A DNA stretch of 64,000 nt from a virus (taxonomy: Duplodnaviria > Heunggongvirae > Uroviricota > Caudoviricetes). Below are positions 69 through 57,070 of this stretch, one piece after another (the first letter of the stretch is position 1; every line of letters starts with the position of its first letter). Both the position numbers and the translations under genes were made by a program. The stretch spans positions 35,348 to 99,347 of IMG/VR virus record IMGVR_UViG_3300026549_001501; one strand, written 5' to 3'. The notes beneath the pieces were generated by a model, which searched no databases, was not told the DNA's origin, and saw nothing but the letters and a program-made list of their open reading frames with translations.

Positions 69-341
69 TTAATTTCTAGCATTCTTTCTATATTTTATTA
101 TTAATGCGAAAATTATAACAGACAAAATAAATTCAGAGACATACATGATAAACAATTCGGGACGTTTCAACAGTATAGAATAAACCGTACCGCAAGCCGT
201 TGAAAACAGCCATATCGACCACGAGGTAATGCTCAAATCTTTCGAATATTTTGTCTTAATTAGCGTAATAATTTGGGGAATATACCCAATGTAAGCACAT
301 ACGGTTATAATCCCCATTAACGCTGAAAGAATAAAATCCAT
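69..341 (-). CDS. small hydrophobic (membrane) protein, 90 aa
   Basis: ORF with two or three hydrophobic segments. No recognisable motif. Confidence 0.35.
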   Translation of the reverse strand: MDFILSALMGIITVCAYIGYIPQIITLIKTKYSKDLSITSWSIWLFSTACGTVYSILLKRPELFIMYVSEFILSVIIFALIIKYRKNARN

Positions 342-955
342 TATTCTCCGTATTTTTCCTTGATTGCTTCTTTAACCTCTTCTCCCGGCTCAGGAATTTT
401 CATTTCTTCCCTGATTTGCTGAAGTTTATCCTTTATATTATCAGAATCAAAAATATCCGAAATTGCATCCTCAGGTTTGTCGTAGTCTGGATTGAGGATA
501 TCAGTCACTTTCTTGTCAAGTTTCTCCATTGCTGCATTCCACCTGTCGTCGGCATCGTCAGAAAGCTCCTCTACGTCCGCATAGTCTGTTTTTTCCTCGT
601 CAGAAATCTCGTCCCAATTAACGTTCTCCTCCTCAGTAAGCCAAGGAAGGTCAAAATCCTTAAATTTCTGCTCCTGCCAATTGATGAGCTCCCAATCGTC
701 GCTGAGCATATCAGTCTGACTTGCAACCCAACCTGTTAGAATCTTATTGTCGGCAGTTTTCATGCAGATGGTGCCGAGTGCCTTTATTTCACCTCCGTTC
801 TCGTGTGCAATTTCCTTAAGGATAGGATCCTTGCACCATTCTTCCTTTATTACCGTCGCGGGCTTGAGCCATAGGAACATGCCTTTACCGTTCCAACCCC
901 TTCGTAGCACTTTCTCTCCGTGTTTAAGTGCCTCTAATGCTTCACTGAAATTCAT
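341..955 (-). CDS. DUF2829 (Tad2-like) domain protein with long acidic C-terminal tail
   Basis: The N-terminus (MNFSEALEALKHGEKVLRRGWNGKGMFL) matches my recollection of the DUF2829 signature seen in Thoeris anti-defence Tad2 proteins. The C-terminal half is strongly D/E-rich. Confidence 0.45.
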   Translation of the reverse strand: MNFSEALEALKHGEKVLRRGWNGKGMFLWLKPATVIKEEWCKDPILKEIAHENGGEIKALGTICMKTADNKILTGWVASQTDMLSDDWELINWQEQKFKDFDLPWLTEEENVNWDEISDEEKTDYADVEELSDDADDRWNAAMEKLDKKVTDILNPDYDKPEDAISDIFDSDNIKDKLQQIREEMKIPEPGEEVKEAIKEKYGE

Positions 956-977: not shown

Positions 978-2138
978 TTATTTTCTGAACGAACCATCTC
1001 CCGACAGGTTGATAATCAGTTCTGTGTTTTCTCTCATTTCTTCTATTGTCCTGCAGCCAGTATACGACATGCAACTTCTCATATAAGAAGCCATATTGTC
1101 CGCCCACTTAGCGATAGGGTATTCCACAGGAATTGGACGTGCAATTCCTTCAGCCGTAACGTCGCCCTTTCCGCCCGTTTTCTTCTGTGCGAGCTTCGTA
1201 CTCATTCCATAGTAAAGGCGATATGGCTTTCTTTGCGATAGTTTACGGTATGCAACCCAATATTCGTTATCGTCAGTACCCCAATATAAGTCGCTACGCT
1301 CCTTGAGCTCCGCCAACTTCTCTGCATATTCCTCTGCGGGAATCGCATCTGCCATATTGAGGTTGTCTGGGTGAAGGAATACAATTGGCTCACATGCTTC
1401 CTGAGCCTTAGCAAAAATACTACCGCTCATAACAGCCCAAGCGCCAAGTGCAATACACTTCTGAATGTCGTCGAAATTTGAAATTCCTCCGTCGACTATG
1501 ATATTTGTTCTTGATTTTCTGTCATGAGATTGATCCCAATCTTCCTTTTCCATACGAAGCCTGTCTACGAGCGTGGCAGTTGGATAATGCACGCCAACAT
1601 TACAGGACGTAGTACAACGGCTTCCCGTTCCAACACAGGCACGCATAAAGTCTATCTCGTAGTTTTCGTAGAATGCATATGCGAACGGATTTGCGACATT
1701 TCCTGTCATGATAACGATATTGTCGCCGAATATCGCCTTGAGATTTTTACACACTGAATAAAGACACTGCATTGTTCCGTGTGCGATGTCGATACAAATG
1801 AAATGACGTTTATCTTTCTTCATATCGAGATGGTCGGCAAGATAACGAGCCTCAGCCAACGAAAATGAGGCAAACGTCTCTTCGCTAATTTTGATTCGCG
1901 TTTGATAATCTACAGTCCTTGGTACAACACAAAGGAAATTGTTGTCAAGCCATACCTTGTAGTTTTCTTCATTGGTGACAGCCCCCATCGGAGAAACTAT
2001 TACTGGGTAAGCCTTTTTACCGTAGAAGTCAATCATAGGGTCGCATTCAGCCCTGTGCTCAATGTCTGAAACGGGAGCCTGAATAATGTGAATACTTTCA
2101 AGCTCATAACCAACCTGTGTAAGTTTACTTTTCGCCAT
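978..2138 (-). CDS. IMPDH/GMP reductase family protein (GMP reductase-like; no CBS domains)
   Basis: The catalytic-loop-like segment is CVGTGSRCTT. IIVDGGI...MSGSIFA matches the IMPDH/GMPR TIM-barrel phosphate-binding segment. At 392 aa it lacks the CBS insert. The start is trimmed to MAKSKL to avoid overlapping the upstream gene. Confidence 0.55.
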   Translation of the reverse strand: MAKSKLTQVGYELESIHIIQAPVSDIEHRAECDPMIDFYGKKAYPVIVSPMGAVTNEENYKVWLDNNFLCVVPRTVDYQTRIKISEETFASFSLAEARYLADHLDMKKDKRHFICIDIAHGTMQCLYSVCKNLKAIFGDNIVIMTGNVANPFAYAFYENYEIDFMRACVGTGSRCTTSCNVGVHYPTATLVDRLRMEKEDWDQSHDRKSRTNIIVDGGISNFDDIQKCIALGAWAVMSGSIFAKAQEACEPIVFLHPDNLNMADAIPAEEYAEKLAELKERSDLYWGTDDNEYWVAYRKLSQRKPYRLYYGMSTKLAQKKTGGKGDVTAEGIARPIPVEYPIAKWADNMASYMRSCMSYTGCRTIEEMRENTELIINLSGDGSFRK

Positions 2139-2994
2139 TACTAATATAATTTTCAAATTTTGAAATTGTTGTGTTCAAGTCCTCTGTTAGTAGGCTTTGT
2201 ACCTTTTCTCTGTATCCATCAGGAATGCCGTAATATGCGGCGGCAAGGGCGCAAGCCATATCGGCAATAGTATCGCTATCTCCGCCAATCCAAATAGCCT
2301 TTTTGAATACATCGTCGAATGAATCCCCTTCAAGGAATGCGATTATTGCCTCAGGAACCGTAACCTGACAGGTTGCATCGAACTTATGAGAGCCGTGAAT
2401 TTCGTCCACAGTCTTGCTCAAATCATAGCCAAAATTACGCTCTATGTCTTGCTTGAGATATTCTTTGTCGGGGTATCCGCAAAGTGTGCTCCAAATTGCA
2501 TAGCATAATGCCTGTGCACCCTTTATACCCTCTGGGTGATTGTGTGTAACCGCCGCAGACTGTTTAGCCAACTCCATGAGCTCATCGTAACTTTCGGCAA
2601 CACAAGCGCAAGCACTGCAACGCATTGCCGCGCCATTTCCGAATGAATTCATTGGTTCCTTGTTCTTCATAGCAAGCCACTCACGGAAAATGTGCCCATA
2701 TCCTGCGTTTGGATGAGCCTTTCCGTATTTGTCGAGCCTGTCTTTTAAAATCTGTTCTTGATCTTCCGTCGTTCCGTTCTTTCCGTCAACAAGCCATTCT
2801 GCAATGGCGCAACTAAGAACGGTATCGTCAGTAAATCGACTCGGAGAATCGAAACTCAGCTTAATTTCTTGCTTGGTCTTAGCATTGTGCCATTCATAAC
2901 CGCTTCCACAAACGTCTCCGATAATAGCTCCAATTAGCGGGTCAATTGTCTTTGTAACAGTTTTTATTGTTGAAATATTGTCAAATTTTGCCAT
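2125..2994 (-). CDS. ADP-ribosylglycohydrolase family protein
   Basis: It has the N-terminal GAIIGDVCGSGYEW motif (GDAlG-type) and the C-terminal GGDSDTIADMACALAAAYYG motif typical of ARH/DraG hydrolases. Confidence 0.6.
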   Translation of the reverse strand: MAKFDNISTIKTVTKTIDPLIGAIIGDVCGSGYEWHNAKTKQEIKLSFDSPSRFTDDTVLSCAIAEWLVDGKNGTTEDQEQILKDRLDKYGKAHPNAGYGHIFREWLAMKNKEPMNSFGNGAAMRCSACACVAESYDELMELAKQSAAVTHNHPEGIKGAQALCYAIWSTLCGYPDKEYLKQDIERNFGYDLSKTVDEIHGSHKFDATCQVTVPEAIIAFLEGDSFDDVFKKAIWIGGDSDTIADMACALAAAYYGIPDGYREKVQSLLTEDLNTTISKFENYISNGEK

Positions 2995-5500: not shown

Positions 5501-5675
5501 TGCCCACGACAGGATTCGAACCTGTGACCGACGGATTAGCGCGTAAACTACGCTTCGAACGTAAACAGAGCTACATGCATGTACTCAACCCCGCTTTCTC
5601 CCATAATACGCGTGTTCGTCTCGGTGAACAATACCGTATGAAATCCGTTGCTCTATCCAACTGAGCTACGTGGGC
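5501..5675 (-). tRNA. tRNA-Arg(TCT) interrupted by a ~101-nt intervening sequence (about 5540..5640) inside the anticodon, after T34
   Basis: The 5' half (GCCCACG-TAGCTCAGTTGGATAGAGC-ACGGA-TTT) and 3' half (CTAA-TCCGT...ACAGGTTCGAATCCTGT-CGTGGGC) have 7/7 acceptor complementarity. The body closely resembles E. coli tRNA-Arg(UCU). The insert carries a GGGAGAAAG box and a 3'-proximal TACGTTCGAAGCGTA hairpin. Confidence 0.55.
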
Positions 5676-7549: not shown

Positions 7550-8332
7550 TTAATTATTTTTTATGTCATTGATAGTAAGTTTTTTACGGTGAAACCTTTT
7601 ACTATCTTTATTTAATGAGCCAAAATTAGGTGTTAAACTATGGCAATTCGGGCAAAGTAATTGCAGATTTTCAAGTTTGTTGTTTGTGCAATCACCGTCT
7701 ATATGGTGTACTTCTAAAGGTATTTTTCCTGTAGTTTCATTCTTTTTTCCCCACCCGCATTTTTCACATTTGTTATTATGTATTTTTAGAAGATATTTTT
7801 TTATAAACTCAGGTAATTGCCCTCCTGCTCCTCTTGTAAAATTTTCTCCTTGCAGCCATCGTTCAATTTTCTTTTTTCTTTCATATTCTATATGGCAAGT
7901 ATTACTACAAAATTGTCCACGTTTTATTGGTTTCCCGCAATTAGCGCATTTTTTATTGATTTCTTCTTCAATAAGGTTTCCGCCAAGGGACTTAGATATT
8001 TTTATTCTTGTTTCTAAAGAACGCGGCCCTCGTATTACATTGTTATATTTCGCGGCGCAAGAAGAAGAACAAAATTTATTAAACCTTTGTTCATACGTAA
8101 GTTTTTTACCACACGTCTCGCAATATCTCGGTTTTTTTTCGTACTCTTCTCTTGTAATCCTATTTTTATAATACTTTCCGTCTATTCCGGCTTGTTTTTT
8201 AATCTTTTCTATGAAACGCCAAGATGCACCATTATTCTTTCTGCCAAAATATCTTATTACTTCAAGTTCTGAATTACATTGTTCAAATGCTTTTAATATC
8301 TCCGCAGTTGTTATGCTATTTTTTTCTTTCAT
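7550..8332 (-). CDS. HNH homing endonuclease with repeated Zn-finger modules
   Basis: C-terminal HNH motif (VHHIDGDCTNN...LCPNCH). There are three KFCSSSCAAKYNN-type Cys modules. It sits between tRNA genes. Confidence 0.7.
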   Translation of the reverse strand: MKEKNSITTAEILKAFEQCNSELEVIRYFGRKNNGASWRFIEKIKKQAGIDGKYYKNRITREEYEKKPRYCETCGKKLTYEQRFNKFCSSSCAAKYNNVIRGPRSLETRIKISKSLGGNLIEEEINKKCANCGKPIKRGQFCSNTCHIEYERKKKIERWLQGENFTRGAGGQLPEFIKKYLLKIHNNKCEKCGWGKKNETTGKIPLEVHHIDGDCTNNKLENLQLLCPNCHSLTPNFGSLNKDSKRFHRKKLTINDIKNN

Positions 8333-9585: not shown

Positions 9586-9972
9586 TTAACTAACTTTCGT
9601 TATAAAAATCACCTCAGGGTGTTCCCCGAAAACTGTGTGAGTAACATTGCAAAGCCAAACGGTTAACGGAAATTTGCTATCTTCATTAAGAGTCTTATCC
9701 ATTATTTCATTGAATAAAAATCCATTTAATGAATATGTTGCTCCGTCATCGTCATGATCAAGAATTGTCAACTTTAATAAATATTGTTTCGGCTCGACAA
9801 TACTTAGGACAAACCCCGTTTCCATTTCAACTTCAACAGAATCTTTTCCATTTGATAGCAATTCACACATTTCGTCAGCACCCAAAACCATCTCATTATC
9901 TTCAAGACTATGCTCGGGAACGTCGGCATACCAACGCCCGTCTTGCTTGAAAAATTTAAGTTTTGTTTTCAT
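9586..9972 (-). CDS. hypothetical protein, 128 aa
   Basis: ORF downstream of, and apparently co-oriented with, the endonuclease gene. Confidence 0.45.
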   Translation of the reverse strand: MKTKLKFFKQDGRWYADVPEHSLEDNEMVLGADEMCELLSNGKDSVEVEMETGFVLSIVEPKQYLLKLTILDHDDDGATYSLNGFLFNEIMDKTLNEDSKFPLTVWLCNVTHTVFGEHPEVIFITKVS

Positions 9973-10820
9973 AATAAGTTATTATAAAAAGTCAAAAACT
10001 CGTTTATCTTTTCCCGCATTTTCTGTCGTCCCGCATCGTTATTTATTGTATTCCATTCAATTCGATAAATTGTGTACCCATGTTCTCTAAGGAAACAATC
10101 TCTTTCGGCGTCATGCGTTTGTCTACGTTTATGCTGTCTACCGTCAATTTCTAAATCTATCTTCTTCCCGTTTCTTTCAATTAAAAAATCAAGAAAGTAC
10201 TTTTTTGTTGAAAAATCCTCTTTTATAAAAGGTATTTTATTGTTTATTAAAACTTTTTCCCAAAATATCTCCGGGTATGAGTGAATGTTTCTTGTTTGCC
10301 ATCCGGAAAACGTCCCTTCTTTTATCCTTTCGTATGCCTTCTCTCTAATTTTATTTTTTACTTCTTCACTGTTATGTGCACATTGTTGACAACAATACTG
10401 GGCATTCTTATTTACTGAGGTAAATACTTTTCCGCAATGTTTGCAAACTATCTCATACTCTTTTTTACCAACTTGTCCATTCTTCAGTAATGAATGTTGT
10501 TGCAACGCCTCAGAAATCTTTTGCTTTGTCTCTTCTGATAAAGTTCTCTTTCGGTTGTTGTATTTAGCAGCACAAGATGAACTACAAAATTTTCTATTCC
10601 CGTGTATTACCTTACCGCATTGAAGGCAGCGCTTCTCTTTGTTTTGTTGTATTATATTTACAATATCAATATTGTACTCACGAGAGCAGTATTCAATTAT
10701 TTTCTTTTGTACGTTACCATTTGTGTATTTTACACCATAAATGATATTAGCGCATTCAGTAAATGTCTTACACTTCAAAAGTTCGTCTAGTTTTGTTTTA
10801 TTTTCCATAAAAATTGCCAT
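9969..10820 (-). CDS. homing-endonuclease-like protein: Zn-finger modules plus C-terminal Vsr-like (DUF559, PD-(D/E)xK) nuclease domain
   Basis: KFCSSSCAAKYNN modules as in 7550..8332. The C-terminus (FLDFLIERNGKKIDLEIDGRQH...DAERDCFLREHGYTIYRIEW) matches the Vsr/DUF559 pattern. Confidence 0.6.
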   Translation of the reverse strand: MAIFMENKTKLDELLKCKTFTECANIIYGVKYTNGNVQKKIIEYCSREYNIDIVNIIQQNKEKRCLQCGKVIHGNRKFCSSSCAAKYNNRKRTLSEETKQKISEALQQHSLLKNGQVGKKEYEIVCKHCGKVFTSVNKNAQYCCQQCAHNSEEVKNKIREKAYERIKEGTFSGWQTRNIHSYPEIFWEKVLINNKIPFIKEDFSTKKYFLDFLIERNGKKIDLEIDGRQHKRRQTHDAERDCFLREHGYTIYRIEWNTINNDAGRQKMREKINEFLTFYNNLL

Positions 10821-10875: not shown

Positions 10876-11029
10876 TCGGGGTGACAGGACTCGGACCTGC
10901 GGCCTGATGGTCGAGCGACACGTAAGATTCGAACTTACGAAACTTCCAATATTGTGTCGCTTCACCAATTTCTCAGCCATTGGTTAACTGTAACCAAACC
11001 ACCCGCTCTACCAACTGAGCTACACCCCG
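10876..11029 (-). tRNA. tRNA (probably Pro(TGG); Glu(CTC) not excluded) interrupted by a ~81-nt insert in the anticodon loop
   Basis: 5' half CGGGGTG-TAGCTCAGTTGGTAGAGC-G-GGTGG. 3' half CCATC-AGGCC-GCAGGTCCGAGTCCTGT-CACCCCG-A. Acceptor 7/7. The insert contains hairpin TTGGTTA/TAACCAA and a T-loop-like hairpin CGTAAG-TTCGAAT-CTTACG. Confidence 0.5.
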
Positions 11030-11173
11030 ATATGTGGACTCGCTTTTTGGTTTTGTATAGCGATATCTACTATTACGTATTCCAAATGTTTTACCGCGTC
11101 GAGTCCGCACGCGAACCGATATTTTAAGTGCTCGGTATACAGTTTCGACCATCCTGCTTCCATTACACTTTTG

Positions 11174-11295
11174 CGCAACCGTTGGGCGTCGAACCCAAAG
11201 CCTTCTGTAGTACTTTTGCCATTAAGCTGTTAGCAAAAGCAGATGGTATCGCGCTCACCGCGACGGGAGCTACCCGTAAACCAATGTTCAGTTGC
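11174..11295 (-). ncRNA. tRNA-like structured RNA element, copy 1 of 2 (homolog at 56835..56953)
   Basis: A closing 7-bp helix GCAACTG/CGGTTGC plus a T-arm-like hairpin TTGGG-TTCGACG-CCCAA. It is about 75% identical to the plus-strand copy, with compensatory changes in both helices. Confidence 0.45.
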
Positions 11296-11476
11296 GTTTT
11301 CTTCTACCAAGCAATTTCTTGCCCGTTTACCTTTAATTTATCACATTTACCCCGCCTGAGCCTTGTGTGAAAAATTTTTTTCATTTTCTTCCTGAATTTT
11401 AGCCATTGCTTTCCTTTGCTTCCGGTAAATTCTTCAGGATACTCTTTTAATGAATACATAAATTTTAATGTTTTGC

Positions 11477-11745
11477 GGAGAGGGAGGGATTCGAACCCCC
11501 GGGCCCGTGAAGGCCAACGGTTTTCCTTGCTACATCGCTTTCACATTGTAGTCTGGACTTTCTCTTCGTCCGTTCTGGACGTCTCCTGTAAAGTCTCTAC
11601 ACACTGTCTTTAAACATTGGCTCGGTATTACCATCAGCATTACATGTTAAGGCTTCACCGAATTAGGGAGATTCTACTTTTATCATTCCTGATAAAGCAC
11701 TCGAATTAACAAGACCGCCGCAATCGACCACTCTGCCACCTCTCC
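11477..11745 (-). tRNA. tRNA-Ser(TGA) containing a 184-nt group I intron (11527..11710) between U34 and G35
   Basis: The exons give a class II tRNA (GGAGAGG-TG-GCAGAGTGGTCGATTGC...GCGGT-CTT|GAAA-ACCGT, long variable arm, T-arm). The intron carries ACCGAGCCAA and GTGTAGAGACT, which match 9 of 9 and 11 of 11 nt of my recollection of the Azoarcus tRNA-Ile group I intron. The 5' exon ends in U and the intron ends in G. Confidence 0.6.
11527..11710 (-). other. compact group I intron (IC3-like) in tRNA-Ser(TGA)
   Basis: See the tRNA entry above. The P7-region motif GUGUAGAGACU and the CCGAGCCAA motif are shared with the 599-nt intron in tRNA-Leu(TAA) at 54927..55525. Confidence 0.55.
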
Positions 11746-13288: not shown

Positions 13289-13374
13289 CGGAGAGCAGTG
13301 GGATCGAACCACATCCGAAAATATGGACGCACAACTTAGCAGGTTGCCGCTGTCACCGTTCAGCATTACTCTCC
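13289..13374 (-). tRNA. tRNA-Ser(GCT)
   Basis: Class II tRNA. Acceptor GGAGAGT/GCTCTCC, anticodon stem GCAAC/GTTGT, loop CTGCTAA, long variable arm. Confidence 0.65.
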
Positions 13375-14148
13375 TTTATAATAAAAATTTTTCCAATCTT
13401 TATATTCTTTTTCTATACTTAAGCTTCGTAAGAAATCATAAGAATAAAGTTCTTTTTTTGTGTGTAAAATTCTATGATGATTTGGACACACAACTATTAA
13501 ATTTCCATTTTCATCACTGCCTCCATCTTTTTTGGGTACAATGTGATGCACATCGCAAGTTGATTCATTCCAACCACAAATAGCACATTTACAATTTGCT
13601 TTTTTTAAAATTTTTATCATGGTTGTTTTTGGCAGTTCCAAAATTGATTCAACCTTATCAATATATTTTCTACCTATGCTTTTTTTACATTTCTTACAAA
13701 GGCAATTTCTTCCTTCTTTTACTTTCCTTCTAGAAAAAAATTCTTCTCCACAGTTCTCACAAATGTAGCGATATAGAACCTTTTCTCTTGGATTACTCTT
13801 GTTAAATTCTTTAAGGGATTTAGACGTCTTTTCTCTATGCGCAACTGTAATTACACGTTCTTTATTATTGAACTTTGCAGCGCAGCTTTTTGAACAAAAT
13901 TTATCTTGCCCTTTTTTTAACTTTTTTCCGCAGCAAGTGCAAAACTTAGAAGGATGTTGCCTCTCTTTGTATACTGAAAAATCAAACCCTACAAGTTCTC
14001 CAACTTTCTTTAGAATCTTATTATGCTCAGTATTATCAGATACACCAAAATACTCAAAGATTTGTTTCTTACTCTTGAAAGAGTCAAAAAGCTCAAAGTA
14101 TTTTTTTATATCTTCTTTACTGTTTATTTCAATATTAAATTTTTTCAT
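13366..14148 (-). CDS. HNH homing endonuclease with Zn-finger modules
   Basis: KFCSKSCAAKFNN-type module. C-terminal HNH motif CDVHHIVPKKDGGSDENGNLIVVCPNHH. Confidence 0.7.
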   Translation of the reverse strand: MKKFNIEINSKEDIKKYFELFDSFKSKKQIFEYFGVSDNTEHNKILKKVGELVGFDFSVYKERQHPSKFCTCCGKKLKKGQDKFCSKSCAAKFNNKERVITVAHREKTSKSLKEFNKSNPREKVLYRYICENCGEEFFSRRKVKEGRNCLCKKCKKSIGRKYIDKVESILELPKTTMIKILKKANCKCAICGWNESTCDVHHIVPKKDGGSDENGNLIVVCPNHHRILHTKKELYSYDFLRSLSIEKEYKDWKNFYYKGE

Positions 14149-14790: not shown

Positions 14791-14797
14791 AATTAAG

Positions 14798-15202
14798 TGG
14801 AGATGACGCGACTCGAACGCGTGTCTTTCAATGTGAAAAAATGCTTTCTACATGCTTATTCACTGTTAGTCAATTTTAAACGGTACGGTAGCGAAGAACC
14901 TTATCCATTCTACATCCATTTTGGAATCTTATTCTTTGGACAAATGGAAATCCTCAGAAAGTACCTCAGTGTCGATGATATCCGTATTGACGAACCCACC
15001 TCGGTTCAGAAATCCGTCACGGATAATGGCCCTCCCGCTGCCTTGGCGGAAATGGGTTAAGCAAATCTACTCTGTAGATTAAGCAGCCATTCTGAAAGTG
15101 TTGTTGCCAACTATTGTTTGGAAACTGAGATCAAAGGGCAAATTTCCGACGCCCTGCATGCTTGCACTCTCCCTTCAATGAAGTCAAAGCCAAAACATCC
15201 CC
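14798..15202 (-). ncRNA. ssrA: tmRNA (ssrA), phage-encoded. Predicted tag peptide (A)GNNTFRMAA
   Basis: The 5' end (GGGGATGTTTTGGCTTTGAC) parallels E. coli GGGGCTGATTCTGGATTCGAC. The 3' tRNA-like end is GACACGCGTTCGAGTCGCGTCATCTCC-A. The acceptor helix has a G3-U70 pair (alanine identity). Internal AAUAGUU|GGC AAC AAC ACU UUC AGA AUG GCU GCU UAA mirrors the E. coli AAUAGUC|GCA resume context and ends in -AA plus a stop. It sits immediately downstream of a TATATTTG promoter. Confidence 0.7.
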
Positions 15203-18962: not shown

Positions 18963-19138
18963 TGGGAACGCACAGATTCGAACTGTGGACCCCCTGCTTG
19001 TGCTGGTAAATTACGCTTCGGACGTAAATTGATGCAACAATTGATTTGCAATTCACTTTCTCCCGTTTTACCAAATATCCGTCACAGTGGATAATTCTGT
19101 AGAAGGCAGGTGCTCTAAACCAGCTGAGCTACGTTCCC
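18963..19138 (-). tRNA. tRNA-Val (probably CAC anticodon) interrupted by a ~101-nt insert in the anticodon loop
   Basis: 5' half GGGAACG-TAGCTCAGCTGGTTTAGAGC-A-CCTGC-CT. 3' half CACAA-GCAGG-GGGTC-CACAGTTCGAATCTGTG-CGTTCCC-A. Acceptor 7/7. The insert carries ACGGGAGAAAG and TACGTCCGAAGCGTA followed by 9 nt, homologous to the 5540..5640 insert. Confidence 0.55.
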
Positions 19139-19751: not shown

Positions 19752-19781
19752 TAAAAATAGATCAAACATCCAAATTTTTTT

Positions 19782-19934
19782 GTACTCCCGCTGTGAATCG
19801 AACACAGATTTAGGGTTTAGTCGGTATTTTACGCTTCGGACGTATACAGTTCTGCATTCTCCCATATTACCGAAGCCCGTTTCGGTGGGCTACTCCGTAT
19901 GGAAACCCTCGTTCTATCCGTTGAACTACGGAAG
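19782..19934 (-). tRNA. tRNA-Arg (probably CCT anticodon) interrupted by a ~80-nt insert
   Basis: 5' half GCTTCCG-TA-GTTCAACGGATAGAAC-G-AGGGT-TTC. 3' half CTAA-ACCCT-AAAT-CTGTGTTCGATTCACAG-CGGGAGT-A. The insert begins CATACGG, as in the 5540..5640 insert, and contains TATGGGAGAATG and TACGTCCGAAGCGTA followed by 9 nt. Confidence 0.5.
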
Positions 19935-19936
19935 CA

Positions 19937-19984
19937 TTTTTAAAACTAAACCCACTAACTTGAATATTTTCAGAGGTTAGTGGG
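19937..19984 (-). terminator. intrinsic terminator-like hairpin downstream of the 20030..20374 gene
   Basis: A perfect 9-bp stem CCCACTAAC/GTTAGTGGG followed, on the minus strand, by TTTAGTTTTAAAAATG. Confidence 0.4.
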
Positions 19985-28284: not shown

Positions 28285-28731
28285 ATGTATTCTGAAGTAG
28301 TTGATCATAATATTGCAAAGTTCTTAAAGGGGAATGATGCAGTTAATCTTGCAGTTTGGAGGAGTATCAAGGCTGAGTTCCTCAATTATAAGACTGCAAA
28401 GGCAGGGAATGTGCTCAACGACGCCGTTGAGCTTAACATTCTTGGTAAGATGCTTGCACAGAGAAAGGACTCCGCTTCTCAGTTCAGAGAGGGTGGACGT
28501 GTTGACCTTGCAGAGAAAGAAGAGAAGGAAGCTGAGGTTCTTTCGGCATTGATTCCCAAGGAGCCAACAGAGGATGAACTCGAGGCGGCAATCAAGGAAG
28601 CCATTGCCACGTTCCCTGAGGGTTACGCTGTATCTATGAGGGACATGAAAACCATTCAAGGTGCGGTGAAGGAAAAATATCCTACCGCAAATGGTGGCGT
28701 AGTTGCTAACATTTTTAGGAAATTCATTTAA
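28285..28731 (+). CDS. GatB/YqeY-domain protein
   Basis: The sequence pattern (DAVNLAVWRSIKAEFLNY...ILGKMLAQRKDSASQF...TEDELEAAIKEAIA) is typical of YqeY. Confidence 0.55.
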   Translation: MYSEVVDHNIAKFLKGNDAVNLAVWRSIKAEFLNYKTAKAGNVLNDAVELNILGKMLAQRKDSASQFREGGRVDLAEKEEKEAEVLSALIPKEPTEDELEAAIKEAIATFPEGYAVSMRDMKTIQGAVKEKYPTANGGVVANIFRKFI

Positions 28732-29353: not shown

Positions 29354-30415
29354 ATGGCACAGAAAGATTATTATTCAATACTCGGTGTAGACAGAAACGC
29401 GTCCGCAGACGATATTAAAAAGGCATATAAGAAATTATGCCTCAAGTATCATCCGGATAGGTGGGCGAACGCAACAGACGCTGAAAAGAAAGAAGCCGAG
29501 GATAAATTCAAGGAGATTAATGAGGCGAACAGTGTTCTCTCCGACCCGAAGAAAAAGCAAAGCTACGACTTGTTCGGAAACGCTGATATGGGTACTAGTG
29601 CCGATGATGAATTTGATCCATTTGAAAGGTTAAGAAGAAGCAGTGGGTGGAATCCATTTGGAGCACCACAGAAAAGAAAGGGCGCTGACGTTCAGGCTGA
29701 GGTTACAATATCAATGAAGGAAGCTTTCAGCGGTGTCGGAAAGAACGTAACGGTGAATAAACCGAGGCCTTGCCACTACTGTAATGGAACAGGCGCCGCC
29801 GACGGTAAGGAGCACAAGTGCCCTCATTGTAATGGAACGGGCGTACATAGGCAGGTTCAGAGGTTCGGAAACGCTACATTTGAATCAACTCGTACGTGTC
29901 CGTACTGTGGTGGTACAGGTAAGGATATTAAGGAACCTTGCCAACACTGCCACGGAACAGGTGTTGAATATGCGCCAGAGACAAACTACGTAGATATCCC
30001 TGCAGGCATTTTTGACGGGGCAACACTCGTAGTGAAGGGTGCAGGCTGTGAATCAGAAGAATATGGCGGCCCTAATGGAGATTTGTTCGTCAAGGTTAAC
30101 GTTATCTCAGAGGATGGATATTCACGCGAAGACGCGAACATTGTATACACGCTCAAGGTTAATTTGATCGATGCGTGGGTTGGATGTAAGAAAACTGTTC
30201 TTGCCCTTGACGGCACGAGTGTCGGCGTTCAGATTCCACCGCTTACAAAGTCAGGCAAAAATTTCGTAGTTCGCGGAAGAGGATTCATTGTAAACACTCC
30301 ATTTGGGCAGGATAGAGGTGATTTCGTTATCCGTATTGAATATGATATTCCAAGCAAACCGTTAACAGAAAAACAGAAAAAAGCTCTTGAGGAGTTTTAT
30401 AATTTGGAGAAGTAA
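29354..30415 (+). CDS. dnaJ: DnaJ-family co-chaperone
   Basis: J-domain with the HPD motif (YHPDR), four CxxCxGxG zinc-finger repeats and a C-terminal domain. Confidence 0.8.
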
Positions 30416-30459: not shown

Positions 30460-31146
30460 ATGAATAACAAATTTGAAAGAGATTTTACCTTGTTCGCAAG
30501 AGATCACAAGGTTCCTACCACAACACTTGAAGGATATACCAGAATGATGGACTCCTACATTGAGCCTACCATTATCGAGGAACGTCGGCTTAATGCTACG
30601 CAGATTAGCGTTTTCAGCCGTCTGTTTATGGAGCGTATTCTTTTTGTCGGCACCGCCATTGACAGCGACGTAGCTAATATCGTCAACTCTCAGCTTCTGT
30701 ACCTTCAGACTGAGAACCCGAGCAAGCCCGTCACTATGTATATCAACTCCCCCGGCGGTTCTGTTTATGACGGAATGAGTATCTATGACGTCGCCAAGTA
30801 TATTTCCTGTCCTATTGGGACTACTTGCTGTGGCACCGCCGCTTCTATGGCAGCAGTTCTGCTTGCCTCAGGTGACAAGGGACTTCGTAACGCCCTTCCT
30901 CACAGTCAGATTATGCTTCACGCTCCTTCTACCGCCACCGGGCGTACCACTGCCCCTGACTTCAGGATTGCAGCAAAGGAGATGGAGAAGTGCGAGGAAA
31001 TGCTTTACCGCGTGCTTGCAGACGACATGGGTAAGGATATCGACTATATTCGTACCATTTGCGACCGCGACCACTGGCTCACCCCCGAGGAAGCCGTCCG
31101 CGAAGGTGTGATTGACTCCGTTATCCGTAAAAATCAGGAAGACTAA
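30460..31146 (+). CDS. clpP: ATP-dependent Clp protease proteolytic subunit ClpP
   Basis: INSPGGSVYDGMSIYD, GTAASMAAVLL (catalytic Ser), MLHAPS (His). Confidence 0.8.
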   Translation: MNNKFERDFTLFARDHKVPTTTLEGYTRMMDSYIEPTIIEERRLNATQISVFSRLFMERILFVGTAIDSDVANIVNSQLLYLQTENPSKPVTMYINSPGGSVYDGMSIYDVAKYISCPIGTTCCGTAASMAAVLLASGDKGLRNALPHSQIMLHAPSTATGRTTAPDFRIAAKEMEKCEEMLYRVLADDMGKDIDYIRTICDRDHWLTPEEAVREGVIDSVIRKNQED

Positions 31147-37560: not shown

Positions 37561-38076
37561 ATGAGAAAGCATGCAGGAAGTTCAAAAATTATGAAGAGAA
37601 TAATATTTCTTGATATAGACGGTGTTGTTAATCACGATAACTGGTACTATGAACAGCGAGTGGTTAACAAGAATTGGGAGTGCGGAGATGCAGATCCAAA
37701 ATGCATAGCGCTTCTCAATTCACTGTATGATATCGGTGCAGAGGTTGTAATAAGTTCTTCGTGGGGAGAAGACGCAGATAAGTTGCTTAATGAAACGGGG
37801 CTAATGCTTCATATTATTGGGCATACCGACCACTATCATAGTGATTTTATTTGCCGTGGAAATGAGATTGAGAAGTGGATTGTTGAACATACGGACAGTA
37901 GACTCGGAACAAAATTCGGAAAAGAGTATAAGAATAAGGACTATACATATGTAATTTTTGATGATGATTGTGATATGCTTCTTGGGCAGAAAGATAATTT
38001 CATTAGGATAGATTCAAAGACAGGGCTTACTCAGGAAGACATTGACAATGCAAGGAAAATTTTATTGGATGAATAA
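37561..38076 (+). CDS. HAD-like phosphatase, 171 aa
   Basis: IIFLDIDGVVNHD (DxDGV motif I). Confidence 0.45.
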   Translation: MRKHAGSSKIMKRIIFLDIDGVVNHDNWYYEQRVVNKNWECGDADPKCIALLNSLYDIGAEVVISSSWGEDADKLLNETGLMLHIIGHTDHYHSDFICRGNEIEKWIVEHTDSRLGTKFGKEYKNKDYTYVIFDDDCDMLLGQKDNFIRIDSKTGLTQEDIDNARKILLDE

Positions 38077-56432: not shown

Positions 56433-56789
56433 GTGGGGCGCCATCACGCCCACGACAGAACGGCTCAACTGACAAAAATTTTAAAACAACATATGTTCAA
56501 TTTATTCAAGAAGAAGCCGGAGAAAATGCCCGTTATTAAAAATGACGAGTATCCTCCTGACGATAAATTGACTATAACCAAGCCAATGACTATAGTGCTT
56601 GACGAGATTGAGGCTTGGAGATTTGACGACTTCAAGGAGAGGCACCTGAAATGCGTAAGAGGTAAATTTGGCGCGATTGGCGGTGGAATTTCCATAAATG
56701 TCAGGGGCACGGGGCTTGGAAATATCTTTCAATGCAAATGTCACGGATGCGGGGCGGAAGAGGATATTACGAACGTTGACAATTGGTAG
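56433..56789 (+). CDS. hypothetical protein (start uncertain)
   Basis: ORF. The 5' part overlaps the structured non-coding region, so the true start may be the MFNLFKKK Met. Confidence 0.3.
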   Translation: MGRHHAHDRTAQLTKILKQHMFNLFKKKPEKMPVIKNDEYPPDDKLTITKPMTIVLDEIEAWRFDDFKERHLKCVRGKFGAIGGGISINVRGTGLGNIFQCKCHGCGAEEDITNVDNW

Positions 56790-56834
56790 TTGTTCACTAA
56801 ATTACCATTGTTCACAAATAACGAACAGACACAT

Positions 56835-56953
56835 ACAACTGAACATTGGCTTACGGGTAGCTCCCGTCGCTGCGCCGTTAGATTCGGATCCATAAGGAAA
56901 CAGCTTAAAGTACTTATGCTTGTAGGGCTTCAGGTTCGACGCCTGGCGGTTGT
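56835..56953 (+). ncRNA. tRNA-like structured RNA element, copy 2 of 2 (homolog of 11174..11295)
   Basis: Closing helix ACAACTG/CGGTTGT and hairpin TCAGG-TTCGACG-CCTGG. Both helices differ from copy 1 by compensatory changes. Confidence 0.45.
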
Positions 56954-56996
56954 ACAAAAACATAACACATCCTTTTATAACTTTATTGCAATTTTT

Positions 56997-57038
56997 GGGA
57001 ACAGTCTTAGTGGAATAGTGAGCTGTTCCCATTTTTTG
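56997..57038 (+). terminator. intrinsic terminator
   Basis: GGGAACAG-(18 nt)-CTGTTCCC followed by ATTTTTTG. Confidence 0.5.
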
Positions 57039-57070
57039 TATAATAGGGAAATTTTCATTATATTTGCAGT

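What the first reader, a model, noticed from the sequence alone, without database searches (positions are those of the whole stretch)
11174..11295. Duplicated ~120-nt tRNA-like RNA with compensatory base changes (second copy at 56835..56953 on the opposite strand)
The two copies are about 75% identical. Shared blocks are CAACTGAACATTGG-TTACGGGTAGCTCCCGTCGC, ACAGCTTAA, AGTACT and GGTTCGACGCC...CGGTTG. In the terminal helix, GCAACTG/CGGTTGC in copy 1 becomes ACAACTG/CGGTTGT in copy 2. In the T-arm-like hairpin, TTGGG/CCCAA becomes TCAGG/CCTGG. In both helices the differences are compensatory, which argues for selection on RNA structure. The element has an acceptor-like stem and a T-loop but no recognisable D or anticodon arms. 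It could be a tRNA mimic such as a Y-RNA-like or tRNA-like regulatory RNA, or an unusual tRNA-derived element.
Basis: seen in the sequence. Interest (0 to 1): 0.6.

Follow-up and report, generated by a model that had tools for sequence, protein, structure and literature searches.

The report
Phage tRNA-like RNA gene, two copies
Two diverged copies of a ~121-nt gene inside this large phage's tRNA arrays encode a conserved RNA with a tRNA's acceptor stem and T arm but no anticodon arm; it matches no catalogued RNA family and shares an invariant hairpin with many other unannotated tRNA look-alikes in phage genomes.

Summary
Copy 1 (11174-11295, minus strand) and copy 2 (56835-56954, plus strand) are about 77% identical, and their differences keep the helices paired.

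Each copy lies in a tRNA array, on the tRNA strand. Each carries the same 3' flank as the phage's real tRNAs: discriminator base, then CAAA.

I found orthologues in related rumen-metagenome phages up to 383 kb. Their neighbouring protein is only 51% identical, yet the RNA keeps five helices:
- a 7-bp acceptor stem (possibly 8 bp);
- hairpin H1, ACGGG-UAGCU-CCCGU;
- hairpin H2, with a T-loop-like loop;
- hairpin H3, with a 13-nt loop UAAYAGCUUAR;
- a canonical T arm.

89.6% of cells pair, against 36-49% in slid controls. Eleven pairs change on both sides.

ARAGORN calls nothing and Rfam 15 has no match. It is not a decoding tRNA. It fails the tmRNA tests: no G3·U70 and no conserved tag frame. 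It fails the Y RNA tests tried: no Ro60 gene among the 54 ORFs scanned and no Ro-binding helix.

The H1 core GGGUAGCUCCC, followed by a T loop, occurs 94 times in IMG/VR against 4 for a reversed control. These hits are mostly tRNA-like genes missed by ARAGORN, and Rfam matched none of the common types sampled.

Most likely it is a non-decoding tRNA mimic matured by tRNA-processing enzymes. Its partner is unknown.

The parts
11174..11295 (-). Copy 1, predicted mature RNA: 122 nt, from position 1 of the 7-bp acceptor stem to the discriminator G.
   Evidence: Sequence. CM R1 scores it 156 bits. The boundaries fit the N73-CAAA rule seen at the phage's tRNAs.
11289..11295 (-). Copy 1, acceptor stem 5' strand GCAACUG. 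C at 11296 can add an 8th pair with G at 11174.
   Evidence: All 8 pairs form in all 6 sequences. Two pairs change on both sides: CG->UA and GC->AU.
11278..11288 (-). Copy 1, linker AACAUUGGUUU that replaces the D arm. The GG is invariant and probably docks on the T loop.
   Evidence: AACAWUGG is conserved in all five lineages. The same stem + AAYAWUGG + T arm plan is seen in the insert of tRNA-Pro. The docking role is an inference.
11263..11277 (-). Copy 1, hairpin H1: ACGGG-UAGCU-CCCGU. Its core GGGUAGCUCCC is invariant.
   Evidence: The outer pair changes A-U -> C-G in L191. The motif hits at 11265-11275. The same 11-mer occurs in many other phage tRNA-like genes.
11242..11259 (-). Copy 1, hairpin H2: GGUG-A-G / C-CAUC with a bulged A and a 7-nt loop CGCGAUA. 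The loop is the T-loop sequence UUCGAUU in L191.
   Evidence: Three of 5 pairs change on both sides: G-C/U-A, C-G/U-A, G-C/A-U. The unconstrained MFE of the L001 orthologue contains this hairpin.
11211..11241 (-). Copy 1, hairpin H3: 9-bp stem UGCUUUUGC/GCAAAAGUA with a 13-nt loop UAACAGCUUAAUG.
   Evidence: The series U-A -> U.G -> C-G appears across c1, L198/L001 and L191. Copy 2 has a wholly different stem, CAUAAG/CUUAUG, around the conserved AACAGCUUAA.
11199..11210 (-). Copy 1, junction CUACAGAAGGCU between H3 and the T arm. It is variable but always begins CU, ends GCU and contains GG.
   Evidence: Alignment.
11182..11198 (-). Copy 1, T arm: UUGGG-UUCGACG-CCCAA.
   Evidence: 100% of cells pair. 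Two pairs change on both sides and one on one side.
11175..11181 (-). Copy 1, acceptor stem 3' strand CGGUUGC. The discriminator G is at 11174.
11170..11173 (-). Copy 1, 3' trailer CAAA. Most of the phage's real tRNAs have the same trailer after the discriminator.
   Evidence: most of the 25 tRNAs are followed by N73-C-A-A(-A).
56835..56954 (+). Copy 2, predicted mature RNA: 120 nt, acceptor ACAACUG/CGGUUGU, discriminator A at 56954.
   Evidence: CM R1 scores it 117.5 bits. Near-identical copies occur in L241 and L242.
56853..56867 (+). Copy 2, hairpin H1: ACGGG-UAGCU-CCCGU, identical to copy 1.
   Evidence: motif at 56855-56865.
56871..56888 (+). Copy 2, H2 region UGCG/CGGA with loop CCGUUAGAUU. 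It pairs less well than in the copy-1 lineage.
   Evidence: two of the five H2 pairs are not formed in copy 2.
56891..56918 (+). Copy 2, hairpin H3: CAUAAG/CUUAUG with loop GAAACAGCUUAAAGUA.
   Evidence: Sequence. The register differs by 1 nt from the model alignment.
56930..56946 (+). Copy 2, T arm: UCAGG-UUCGACG-CCUGG.
56955..56958 (+). Copy 2, 3' trailer CAAA.
56776..56803 (+). Sigma-70-like promoter match (TTGACA-16-TAAATT, 10 of 12), about 30 nt upstream of copy 2. A consensus match only.
   Evidence: The total number of matches in the region is not above the shuffled expectation.
57012..57039 (+). Intrinsic-terminator-like hairpin plus T run, about 55 nt downstream of copy 2.

Best explanation
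Each copy is a gene for a stable, non-decoding tRNA mimic of about 121 nt.

Shown:
- It is a conserved RNA with five helices.
- The ends form a tRNA acceptor stem stacked on a canonical T arm.
- The D arm is replaced by a single-stranded AACAUUGG linker, as in the tRNA-like domain of tmRNA.
- The anticodon arm is replaced by three hairpins, each with a conserved loop: a UAGCU pentaloop, a T-loop-like heptaloop, and a 13-nt UAAYAGCUUAR loop.

Inferred from placement and flanks:
- It is transcribed with, or like, the neighbouring tRNAs.
- RNase P cuts its 5' end.
- Its 3' end is trimmed after the discriminator, as for the phage's tRNAs, which share the N73-CAAA flank.
- A CCA end is then added.

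Inferred function: it has no anticodon arm, so it cannot read codons. It most likely acts in trans, presenting a tRNA-shaped acceptor/elbow together with its invariant loops to a tRNA-recognising protein or RNP. That would make it a decoy, or an adaptor, for a host or phage factor during infection.

The H1 hairpin is a module shared with a broad set of unannotated phage tRNA-like genes. In several of these it sits exactly where the anticodon arm or the variable arm should be.

The confidence of 0.55 combines about 0.9 that this is a real structured tRNA-like RNA gene with about 0.4 that it works as a trans-acting mimic.
For: Real gene under RNA-level selection:
- Orthologues occur in L198-type contigs, in L001/L161/L195 and in L191/L192, the last two of which are parts of 195-383 kb phage contigs (the L198-type contigs are under 5 kb). 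The neighbouring DUF6717 protein there is 91%, 83% and 51% identical.
- 89.6% of cells pair, against 36-49% in slid controls. Eleven pairs change on both sides, against 1-4.
- Single-nucleotide indels between orthologues exclude protein coding.
- The unconstrained MFE of the L001 and L198 sequences gives acceptor + H1 + H3 + T arm.

tRNA-like handling:
- Both copies and all orthologues lie in tRNA arrays, on the tRNA strand.
- In L191 the RNA sits between tRNA-Ala and tRNA-Pro, with spacers of about 3 and 9 nt.
- Most of the phage's tRNAs, and both copies, are followed by N73-CAAA.
- A related phage encodes a CCA/poly(A)-type nucleotidyltransferase and RNA ligases within about 10 kb of the array.

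Not a decoder:
- ARAGORN makes no call, and Rfam has no tRNA, tmRNA or tRNA-Sec hit even at E<10.

Wider family:
- GGGTAGCTCCC-N4-20-GTTCGANTC gives 94 loci in IMG/VR, against 4 for the reversed-motif control.
- In nearly every locus that has tRNAs, the motif is on their strand.
- 57 distinct elements close with a perfect 7-bp acceptor stem next to a T arm.
- L225 has the same order as ours: acceptor, GG linker, H1, T-loop hairpin, hairpin, T arm.
Against: - There is no transcript, end-mapping or aminoacylation evidence.
- The partner is unknown. Nothing ties the RNA to a particular protein, and co-occurrence could not be tested because only 10 kb flanks are retrievable.
- Only five lineages are known, three of them close. 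Part of the covariation count is therefore inherited rather than independent.
- Helices H2 and H3 pair less well in copy 2 under the common alignment.
- One related phage lineage (L194) shows no copy in the 20 kb examined, so the RNA is not indispensable to the group.
- The exact 11-mer also occurs by chance outside tRNA contexts: most of the 159 hits of the 15-mer are not near tRNAs.
Confidence: 0.55

Rival explanations
1. An aminoacylated but non-decoding carrier. After CCA addition the RNA would be charged by a synthetase that reads the acceptor stem and discriminator. It would then deliver the amino acid outside normal decoding. One route is a template-free or SmpB/RqcH-type ribosome-rescue reaction. 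Another is transfer by an aminoacyl-tRNA-dependent transferase.
For: - The acceptor-stem sequence is identical over 8 bp between the window and L191, although the flanking protein is 51% identical. Identity elements would produce this pattern.
- The 3' flank is the same as that of real tRNAs.
- The H1 pentaloop reads U-AGC-U, an alanine-type anticodon core. Some motif-bearing cloverleaf relatives (L240, L250) carry G3.U70 and A73, the AlaRS identity set.
- The phage also encodes a tmRNA and ClpP.
Against: - The focal RNA has A3-U70, not G3.U70.
- The two paralogues differ at 1:72 and 73 (G-C/G against A-U/A), so a single conserved identity is not obvious.
- No charging data exist.
- The alanine reading of H1 is an inference from five letters.
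Confidence: 0.13
2. A miniature tmRNA: a tRNA-like domain plus a very short tag reading frame that ends at the GCU-UAA/UAG in the H3 loop.
For: - The acceptor, D-arm-less UUGG linker and T arm match the plan of a tmRNA tRNA-like domain. The phage's own tmRNA begins GGGGAUG-UUUUGGCUUUGAC.
- The H3 loop ACAGCUUAAU resembles the end of that tmRNA's tag frame, GCUGCUUAAUC.
- UAA changes to UAG in L191, so a stop codon is kept.
Against: - There is no G3.U70.
- The Rfam tmRNA model finds nothing at E<10.
- Two 1-nt indels between copy 1 and L191 shift the frame between the conserved GUCGC and the loop stop codon.
- Copy 1 has an in-frame UGA 10 codons upstream, and the putative tags (..LLLLTA, ..HKETA, ..LSLIA) are not conserved.
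- There are no pseudoknots, and 121 nt is far below any known functional tmRNA (own knowledge).
Confidence: 0.06
3. A Y-RNA-like (YrlA-like) scaffold for a Ro60 or RNA-repair complex. H1-H2-H3 would form a permuted tRNA-like module in the order variable arm, T arm, closed acceptor stem, as in YrlA.
For: - The order H1 (variable-arm-like), H2 (T-loop hairpin), H3 (stem closed by a loop) matches the V-T-AS order described for YrlA (PMC4201824).
- The phage group carries RNA-repair genes: RNA ligases, Tpt1 and the HAD_SAK_2 domain.
Against: - No TROVE/Ro60 domain was found in the 54 window ORFs scanned.
- The GNCGAA motif is absent, and no Ro-binding helix is formed by the ends.
- No Rfam Y RNA hit appears.
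- The ends form a tRNA acceptor stem instead.
Confidence: 0.07
4. No trans function. The element would be a decayed or rearranged tRNA gene kept only as an RNase P/Z processing signal within the tRNA-array transcript.
For: - It lies in the arrays with tRNA-like flanks.
- These phages' tRNA genes are heavily remodelled by inserts and homing endonucleases.
Against: - A processing signal needs only the acceptor/T-arm minihelix.
- Here the internal loops are the most conserved parts. H1 is invariant, and the H3 loop is conserved between paralogues that are 25% diverged.
- The internal helices covary.
- Two diverged paralogues are both maintained.
Confidence: 0.1
5. A DNA-level repeat (IS end, att site or homing-endonuclease target) or a short protein-coding sequence.
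For: - Mechanical ORFs overlap both copies.
- Gene callers placed a 126-aa ORF over the L195 copy.
- Homing-endonuclease genes lie nearby.
Against: - Substitutions are paired across helices, not codon-patterned.
- 1-nt indels separate orthologues.
- The called ORF also runs through tRNA-Pro.
- No other copies or terminal repeats occur in the window.
Confidence: 0.02

Closest known systems
tRNA-like domain (TLD) of tmRNA
   Same: A 7-bp acceptor stem stacked on a canonical T arm. The D arm is replaced by an unpaired GG-containing stretch: UUGGNUU-AC here, UUGGCUUUGAC in this phage's own tmRNA. The anticodon arm is replaced by other helices. The gene lies in the same tRNA array.
   Different: No G3.U70, no pseudoknots, no conserved tag frame, 121 nt against 406 nt, and no hit to Rfam RF00023.
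T4 species 1 and 2 RNAs (rnaC, rnaD): stable small RNAs of unknown function in the T4 tRNA cluster
   Same: A 119-139-nt non-tRNA gene embedded in a phage tRNA cluster on the tRNA strand, next to a homing-endonuclease gene. rnaC ends in a T arm (CCGGG-UUCGAAU-CCCGG) followed by an acceptor-like strand. Its function is likewise unknown.
   Different: No specific similarity. CM R1 scores rnaC 11.8 bits, no better than ordinary T4 tRNAs. T4 RNAs lack the GGGUAGCUCCC hairpin and the UUGG linker.
Bacterial and phage YrlA Y RNAs (tRNA-mimicking Ro60 partners)
   Same: A tRNA mimic of about 110-120 nt with a T arm. M. smegmatis YrlA is cut by RNase P and receives CCA (PMC4201824). The internal order H1-H2-H3 resembles YrlA's order of variable arm, T arm and closed acceptor stem.
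   Different: In YrlA the 5' and 3' ends form the Ro-binding helix. Here they form the acceptor stem. No Ro60 gene, no GNCGAA motif, and no Rfam hit.
Non-canonical tRNAs (allo-tRNAs with 8/4 or 9/3 acceptor/T-stem lengths, tRNA-Sec with 8/5, D-armless mitochondrial tRNAs)
   Same: A possible 8th acceptor pair that covaries (C:G -> U:A), giving an 8/5 arrangement. The D arm is replaced by a loop. The relative L225 has an 8/4 arrangement.
   Different: Those are decoders with a 7-nt anticodon loop. The focal RNA has none and is 30-45 nt longer. The Rfam tRNA-Sec model gives no hit.

Membership tests
tRNA (RF00005) | 7-bp acceptor stem adjoining a 5-bp T stem with a UUCRANY loop | tested here: met
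   GCAACUG/CGGUUGC plus UUGGG-UUCGACG-CCCAA. Pairing is 100% across 6 sequences.
tRNA (RF00005) | D arm: 3-4 bp stem two nucleotides after the acceptor stem | tested here: not met
   An 11-nt unpaired linker, AACAUUGGNUU, follows the acceptor stem.
tRNA (RF00005) | Anticodon arm: 5-bp stem with a 7-nt loop carrying U33 and R37 | tested here: not met
   No such arm exists. The H1 loop is 5 nt and the H3 loop is 13-16 nt. The CUUAA reading as Leu(UAA) lacks a closing stem. ARAGORN and Rfam give no call, even at E<10.
tmRNA (RF00023) | tRNA-like domain with no D stem | tested here: met
   Acceptor, UUGG linker and T arm.
tmRNA (RF00023) | G3.U70 alanine identity pair and A73 | tested here: not met
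   A3-U70 in all copies. The discriminator is G in copy 1 and its orthologues, and A in copy 2.
tmRNA (RF00023) | Conserved tag reading frame with a resume codon and an in-frame stop, plus pseudoknots | tested here: not met
   The frame from the conserved GUCGC to the H3-loop stop codon is shifted by two 1-nt indels between copy 1 and L191. The putative tags are not conserved. No pseudoknot is predicted.
Y RNA / YrlA | Encoded next to a Ro60 (TROVE) gene | tested here: not met
   No TROVE domain in the 54 window ORFs scanned with Pfam. The rest of the phage genome was not seen.
Y RNA / YrlA | 5' and 3' ends form the Ro-binding helix, with a GNCGAA(N)G motif | tested here: not met
   The ends form a tRNA acceptor stem and the motif is absent.
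T4 rnaC/rnaD-type stable RNAs | Sequence or structure homology to T4 rnaC or rnaD | tested here: not met
   CM R1 scores rnaC 11.8 bits, the level of generic tRNA matches.
T4 rnaC/rnaD-type stable RNAs | Non-tRNA small RNA gene inside a phage tRNA cluster, on the same strand | tested here: met
Phage tRNA-like genes carrying the GGG-UAGCU-CCC hairpin (unnamed set described here) | Exact GGGUAGCUCCC hairpin inside an element closed by a 7-bp acceptor stem next to a T arm, on the tRNA strand of a tRNA array | tested here: met
   Both copies and the orthologues qualify. 57 distinct elements in IMG/VR loci do too. Enrichment is 94 against 4 for the reversed-motif control.
Phage tRNA-like genes carrying the GGG-UAGCU-CCC hairpin (unnamed set described here) | Common descent or common function of the set | not testable with these tools
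   The architectures differ: the motif sits as anticodon arm, as variable arm, or 5' of other hairpins. Only L225 shares the order of the focal RNA.

The most novel reading that the evidence does not exclude
The focal RNA would be one member of a large, so far unannotated class of non-decoding tRNA mimics encoded in phage tRNA arrays across ecosystems (rumen, freshwater, marine and GC-rich phages).

The class would be unified by an invariant GGG-UAGCU-CCC hairpin that replaces or supplements the anticodon arm, and by extra T-loop hairpins. The hairpin would be the docking site for a widely conserved bacterial or phage factor.

The RNAs would be CCA-tailed, and some charged. They would work as decoys or adaptors in the conflict over the host's tRNA pool or ribosome rescue.
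Probability: 0.3. Interest if true: 0.8.

Novelty: new variant of a known kind. Interest (0 to 1): 0.6.

Why it matters
Large phages carry tRNA arrays that are usually annotated only with tRNA finders. This element shows that the arrays also hold conserved, structured, tRNA-shaped RNAs that cannot decode and that current tools miss.

T4's species 1 and 2 RNAs have sat in the same position for fifty years with no known function. The family found here comes with covariation support, two paralogues, and an invariant sequence module shared by dozens of other phage tRNA look-alikes. Together these give a concrete handle for finding what such RNAs bind: a covariance model, defined ends, and defined loops to mutate.

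If the partner turns out to be a tRNA-targeting defence nuclease, a synthetase or a ribosome-rescue factor, that would add a new RNA-based layer to phage-host conflict over translation.

Tried and rejected
**Known RNA families.** Rfam 15 at gathering threshold on the whole window, and at E<10 on each copy, gave only chance hits (bxd_4, mir-973). ARAGORN made no call.

**Cultured phages.** BLAST of copy 1, and of the two commonest motif-bearing types, against 50,697 GenBank phage records found no match.

**Pattern scans for homologues.**
- The 20-mer, the 3' pattern and the loop+T-loop pattern found only L001 in IMG/VR. The other hits were coding sequence or tRNA-Leu(UAA) genes.
- The single metagenome scan went on a 15-mer that proved too unspecific.
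- The GTDB genome scan found nothing.
- Orthologues came instead from homologues of the neighbouring DUF6717 protein.

**tRNA-Leu(UAA) with an odd anticodon arm.** The loop contains CUUAA, but no 5-bp stem closes a 7-nt loop, position 37 is a pyrimidine in three lineages, and L191 reads UAG. Rejected.

**Intron-containing tRNA.** Neighbouring tRNAs do carry introns. However, removing any internal segment from this element leaves no D arm or anticodon arm. A GCUC...GAGC pairing seen in copy 1 is absent from L191 and copy 2. Rejected.

**Mini-tmRNA.** Rejected; see the membership tests.

**Antisense regulator.** The complement of the H3 loop has no match in the window beyond the genes themselves.

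**H1 or H3 loop pairing with the junction (GGCU).** Not conserved in L191. The AGCU/AGCU kissing between the H1 and H3 loops cannot be tested, because neither loop varies.

**Homology to T4 rnaC.** None.

**Conserved 144-nt spacer downstream of copy 1.** It is not significantly structured (z = -1.1) and is absent from L191 and L198.

**Copy-2 orthologues.** Found only in near-identical contigs, so they add no covariation.
Full report
**Observation**

As RNA, copy 1 reads 11295->11174 on the minus strand and copy 2 reads 56835->56954 on the plus strand. They are 77% identical over 171 aligned nt including flanks.

The first 37 nt are nearly identical, and so are the T loop and most of the 3' acceptor strand.
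- Acceptor stem: GCAACUG/CGGUUGC against ACAACUG/CGGUUGU.
- T stem: UUGGG/CCCAA against UCAGG/CCUGG.

The 3' pattern occurs twice in the window against 0.02 expected.

**Context**

The window comes from a large phage. It holds 26 ARAGORN tRNA/tmRNA calls, plus further intron-bearing tRNAs that only Rfam detects. They form a minus-strand array at 5.5-19.9 kb and a plus-strand array at 52.9-62.1 kb. Copy 1 lies in the first array and copy 2 in the second, each in the orientation of its array.

On its own strand, copy 1 is flanked as follows:
- Upstream: tRNA-Ser(UGA), 11745->11476, interrupted by a group I intron (Rfam 35 bits, E 5e-7, below the gathering score).
- Downstream: tRNA-Pro(UGG), 11029->10876.

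Most of the phage's tRNAs are followed by discriminator-C-A-A(-A). Both copies have exactly this flank..CGGUUGC-G-CAAAAG and ..CGGUUGU-A-CAAAAA. This fixes the likely 3' end and argues for the same 3' processing as real tRNAs.

Copy 2 also has a sigma-70-like promoter match about 30 nt upstream and a terminator-like hairpin about 55 nt downstream. These are consensus matches only.

**Homologues**

DNA pattern scans found one orthologue in IMG/VR: L001, on a 195-kb contig, 94% identical to copy 1.

I reached more orthologues through the neighbouring DUF6717 protein. Contigs encoding homologues 91%, 83% and 51% identical to it all carry the RNA next to tRNA-Pro: L198-L203, L161/L195-L197 and L191/L192 respectively. 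The sample names point to rumen metagenomes, and the contigs reach 272-383 kb.

In L191 the RNA lies between tRNA-Ala and tRNA-Pro, with spacers of about 3 and 9 nt. A fourth lineage, L194, shows no copy within the 20 kb held. Copy-2 orthologues exist only in near-identical contigs.

**Structure**

The five lineages support five helices.

1. **Acceptor stem.** Seven pairs. An eighth, -1:73, changes C:G -> U:A.
2. **H1, ACGGG-UAGCU-CCCGU.** The outer pair changes A-U -> C-G in L191. The 11-nt core is invariant.
3. **H2, GGYG-A-G / C-CRYC.** It has a conserved bulged A and a 7-nt loop. In L191 the loop is the T-loop sequence UUCGAUU. Three of its five pairs change on both sides.
4. **H3.** Six to nine pairs. 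It shows a U-A -> U.G -> C-G series, and copy 2 has a wholly different stem. The loop consensus is UAAYAGCUUAR.
5. **T arm.**

An unpaired AACAWUGG linker follows the acceptor stem in place of a D arm.

On the model-derived alignment:
- 89.6% of cells are paired, against 36-49% when 3' partners are slid by 1-3 columns.
- Eleven pairs change on both sides, against 1-4 in the slid controls.
- None of 500 shuffles reached the observed covariation score.

The sample is small and three lineages are close, so the shuffle figure overstates independence. The slid control is the fairer one.

For L001 the unconstrained MFE is exactly this structure. For L198 it contains the acceptor stem, H1, H3 and the T arm. 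Single-nucleotide indels between orthologues rule out a coding explanation.

**What it is not**

- **Decoding tRNA.** There is no D arm and no 5-bp/7-nt anticodon arm. ARAGORN and the Rfam tRNA and tRNA-Sec models are silent even at E<10.
- **tRNA-Leu(UAA).** This reading of the H3 loop fails. Nothing closes a 7-nt loop, and position 37 would be a pyrimidine.
- **Intron-split tRNA.** No excision restores a cloverleaf.
- **tmRNA.** The resemblance is real at the level of the tRNA-like domain. The phage's own tmRNA begins GGGGAUG-UUUUGGCUUUGAC and ends its tag frame with GCUGCUUAAUC, compared with ACAGCUUAAU in the H3 loop. Even so, G3.U70 is absent, the frame to the loop stop codon is not conserved because of two 1-nt indels, the putative tags differ, and the Rfam tmRNA model finds nothing.
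- **Y RNA.** No Ro60/TROVE gene appears among the 54 window ORFs scanned, there is no terminal Ro-binding helix, and the GNCGAA motif is absent (PMC4201824).
- **T4 rnaC.** It shares only the generic T arm.

**A wider set**

The H1 core turned out not to be private to this family. The pattern GGGTAGCTCCC-N4-20-GTTCGANTC hits 94 IMG/VR loci. The same pattern with the 11-mer reversed hits 4.

Across the loci fetched, I counted 133 motif copies. In nearly every locus that has tRNAs, the motif is on their strand, and 91 copies lie within 500 nt of another tRNA. Eighty-one copies, 57 of them distinct sequences, sit in an element closed by a perfect 7-bp stem next to a T arm.

The architectures differ:
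- **67-71-nt near-cloverleaves.** The motif is the anticodon arm, with a 5-bp stem and a 5-nt loop (L309, L250, L251, L240). Two of these have G3.U70 and A73.
- **77-nt type.** It has a CAU anticodon arm, no D arm, and the motif as a long variable arm.
- **92-nt type, the commonest.** Its order is acceptor stem, UUGG linker, T-loop hairpin, small hairpin, motif, T arm.
- **~151-nt type.** It begins like the focal RNA: acceptor stem, ~10-nt linker, motif hairpin.
- **L225, 109 nt.** It comes from a phage that also has a tmRNA. It shares the whole order of the focal RNA: 8-bp acceptor stem, GG linker, H1, a perfect T-loop hairpin, a hairpin, and a 4-bp T stem. R1 scores it 27 bits.

Rfam recognises only the near-cloverleaf ones. 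I found no paper that mentions the motif.

Whether the set is one family by descent, or a shared module, cannot be decided here. The 11-mer also occurs by chance in coding DNA.

**Mechanism**

Shown: a conserved RNA with a tRNA acceptor/T-arm minihelix, three internal hairpins with conserved loops, embedded and flanked like a tRNA.

Inferred: maturation by RNase P at the 5' end, trimming to the discriminator at the 3' end, and CCA addition. A related phage encodes a CCA/poly(A)-type nucleotidyltransferase, several RNA ligases and related RNA-repair proteins within about 10 kb of the array. Another related contig adds Tpt1, and the window has a HAD_SAK_2 RNA-repair domain protein.

Inferred: the invariant GG of the linker docks on the T loop to form a tRNA elbow, as in tmRNA. 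The second T-loop-like hairpin, H2, may form a second elbow with the GG of the junction or with the H1 loop.

Most likely function, at modest confidence: a non-decoding tRNA mimic that presents its acceptor/elbow and its invariant loops to a tRNA-recognising factor, as a decoy or an adaptor.

The pentaloop U-AGC-U looks like a shrunken alanine-type anticodon loop, and in relatives it occupies the anticodon-arm position. This hints at a factor that reads that arm. It rests on five letters and is only a lead.

A charged, non-decoding carrier role is the main rival. It would fit the strict conservation of the acceptor-stem sequence.

**Verdict**

The RNA is a new variant of the tRNA-like small RNA kind. 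Its closest relatives in plan are the tmRNA tRNA-like domain and the T4 species 1/2 RNAs. It is absent from Rfam 15 and missed by ARAGORN, and it links to a much broader set of unannotated phage tRNA look-alikes. Function and partner remain open.

Noticed in passing
window 10876-11029 (-); L001 12226-12302; L214 ~2060-2140: tRNA-Pro(UGG) carries an 85-nt insert in the anticodon loop. The insert is absent from the orthologous gene in L001. It contains a minihelix: a 7-bp stem GCGACAC/GUGUCGC, then AAUAUUGGAAGUUUC, then a T arm GUAAG-UUCGAAU-CUUAC. This is the same 'stem + AAYAWUGG + T arm' plan as the focal RNA. L214 has the same insert with a fully compensated stem, ACGGUAU/AUGCCGU. The fold z-score is -3.4. 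How such an insert is removed is unknown.
   Followed up: partly
window 5501-5675, 18963-19138, 19779-19939 (-); L191 4558-4735; L194 10610-10742: A family of roughly 60-100-nt inserts sits in tRNA anticodon loops. They share the motifs CACCGARACG, GGGAGAA and UACGUYCGAAGCGUA. They are too short for a group I intron and match no Rfam family. ARAGORN misses these tRNAs; Rfam RF00005 finds them, except 19779-19939, which only CM R1 picked up (17.6 bits).
   Followed up: no
window 11476-11745 (-), intron about 11530-11720: tRNA-Ser(UGA) is interrupted in the anticodon loop by a ~190-nt group I intron. Rfam RF00028 scores it 35 bits, E 5e-7, below the gathering score.
   Followed up: partly
3' flanks of tRNA genes across the window (for example 11938, 12422, 15763, 53024, 54868): Most tRNA genes are followed by discriminator-C-A-A-A rather than CCA or random sequence. 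The same ACAAA-type flank follows many motif-bearing tRNA-like genes in unrelated phages. It may be a 3'-processing or CCA-repair signal.
   Followed up: partly
L230 1060-1260, L224 590-780, L219 225-432 (-), L227 8760-8990 (-): GC-rich phages carry a conserved ~200-nt RNA in their tRNA clusters. It has a 5' module with helix AGUCCGU/ACGGACU, the same CGGGUAGCUCCCG hairpin, and a CCCCGA...UCGGGG hairpin. A tRNA-like 3' module follows, with acceptor stem, D arm and T arm but only 13-16 nt in place of the anticodon arm. No Rfam family matches; the best hit is mascRNA at E 0.7.
   Followed up: partly
window 14797-15202 (-), 30460-31146 (+), 29354-30415 (+): The phage encodes its own tmRNA (tag GNNTFRMAA), a ClpP protease and a DnaJ chaperone. 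Related phages also carry a tmRNA in the same array.
   Followed up: no
window 7550-8332, 9969-10820, 13366-14148 (-): ORFs with HNH or DUF559/NUMOD3 homing-endonuclease domains are interspersed among the tRNA genes. The 9969-10820 ORF is absent from the syntenic position in L001.
   Followed up: partly
window 341-955, 2125-2994 (-); 28285-28731, 37561-38076 (+): Several notable proteins are encoded: a Tad2-like (Thoeris anti-defence) domain protein, an ADP-ribosylglycohydrolase, a free-standing YqeY/GatB-tail-like protein (a tRNA-binding fold, so a conceivable partner for tRNA-like RNAs), and a HAD_SAK_2 RNA-repair domain protein.
   Followed up: no
window 11030-11173 (-): The 144-nt spacer between copy 1 and tRNA-Pro is about 88% identical to L001, more conserved than the neighbouring protein genes. 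It is not significantly structured (z = -1.1) and is absent from L191 and L198.
   Followed up: partly
window 11303-11458 (-): A 51-codon basic ORF (MYSLKEYPEEF...GQEIAW) ends 7 nt upstream of copy 1. Its 3' part is conserved in the L198-type contigs but not in L001.
   Followed up: no
L216 878-3464, L210 9098-10381, L191 14346-20366: In related phages the DUF6717 gene next to the focal RNA sits beside RNA ligase (PF09414) genes. Tpt1 (PF01885) lies nearby in L216, and a PolyA_pol/CCA-type nucleotidyltransferase lies nearby in L191. DUF6717 may therefore belong to the tRNA repair and maturation gene set.
   Followed up: no
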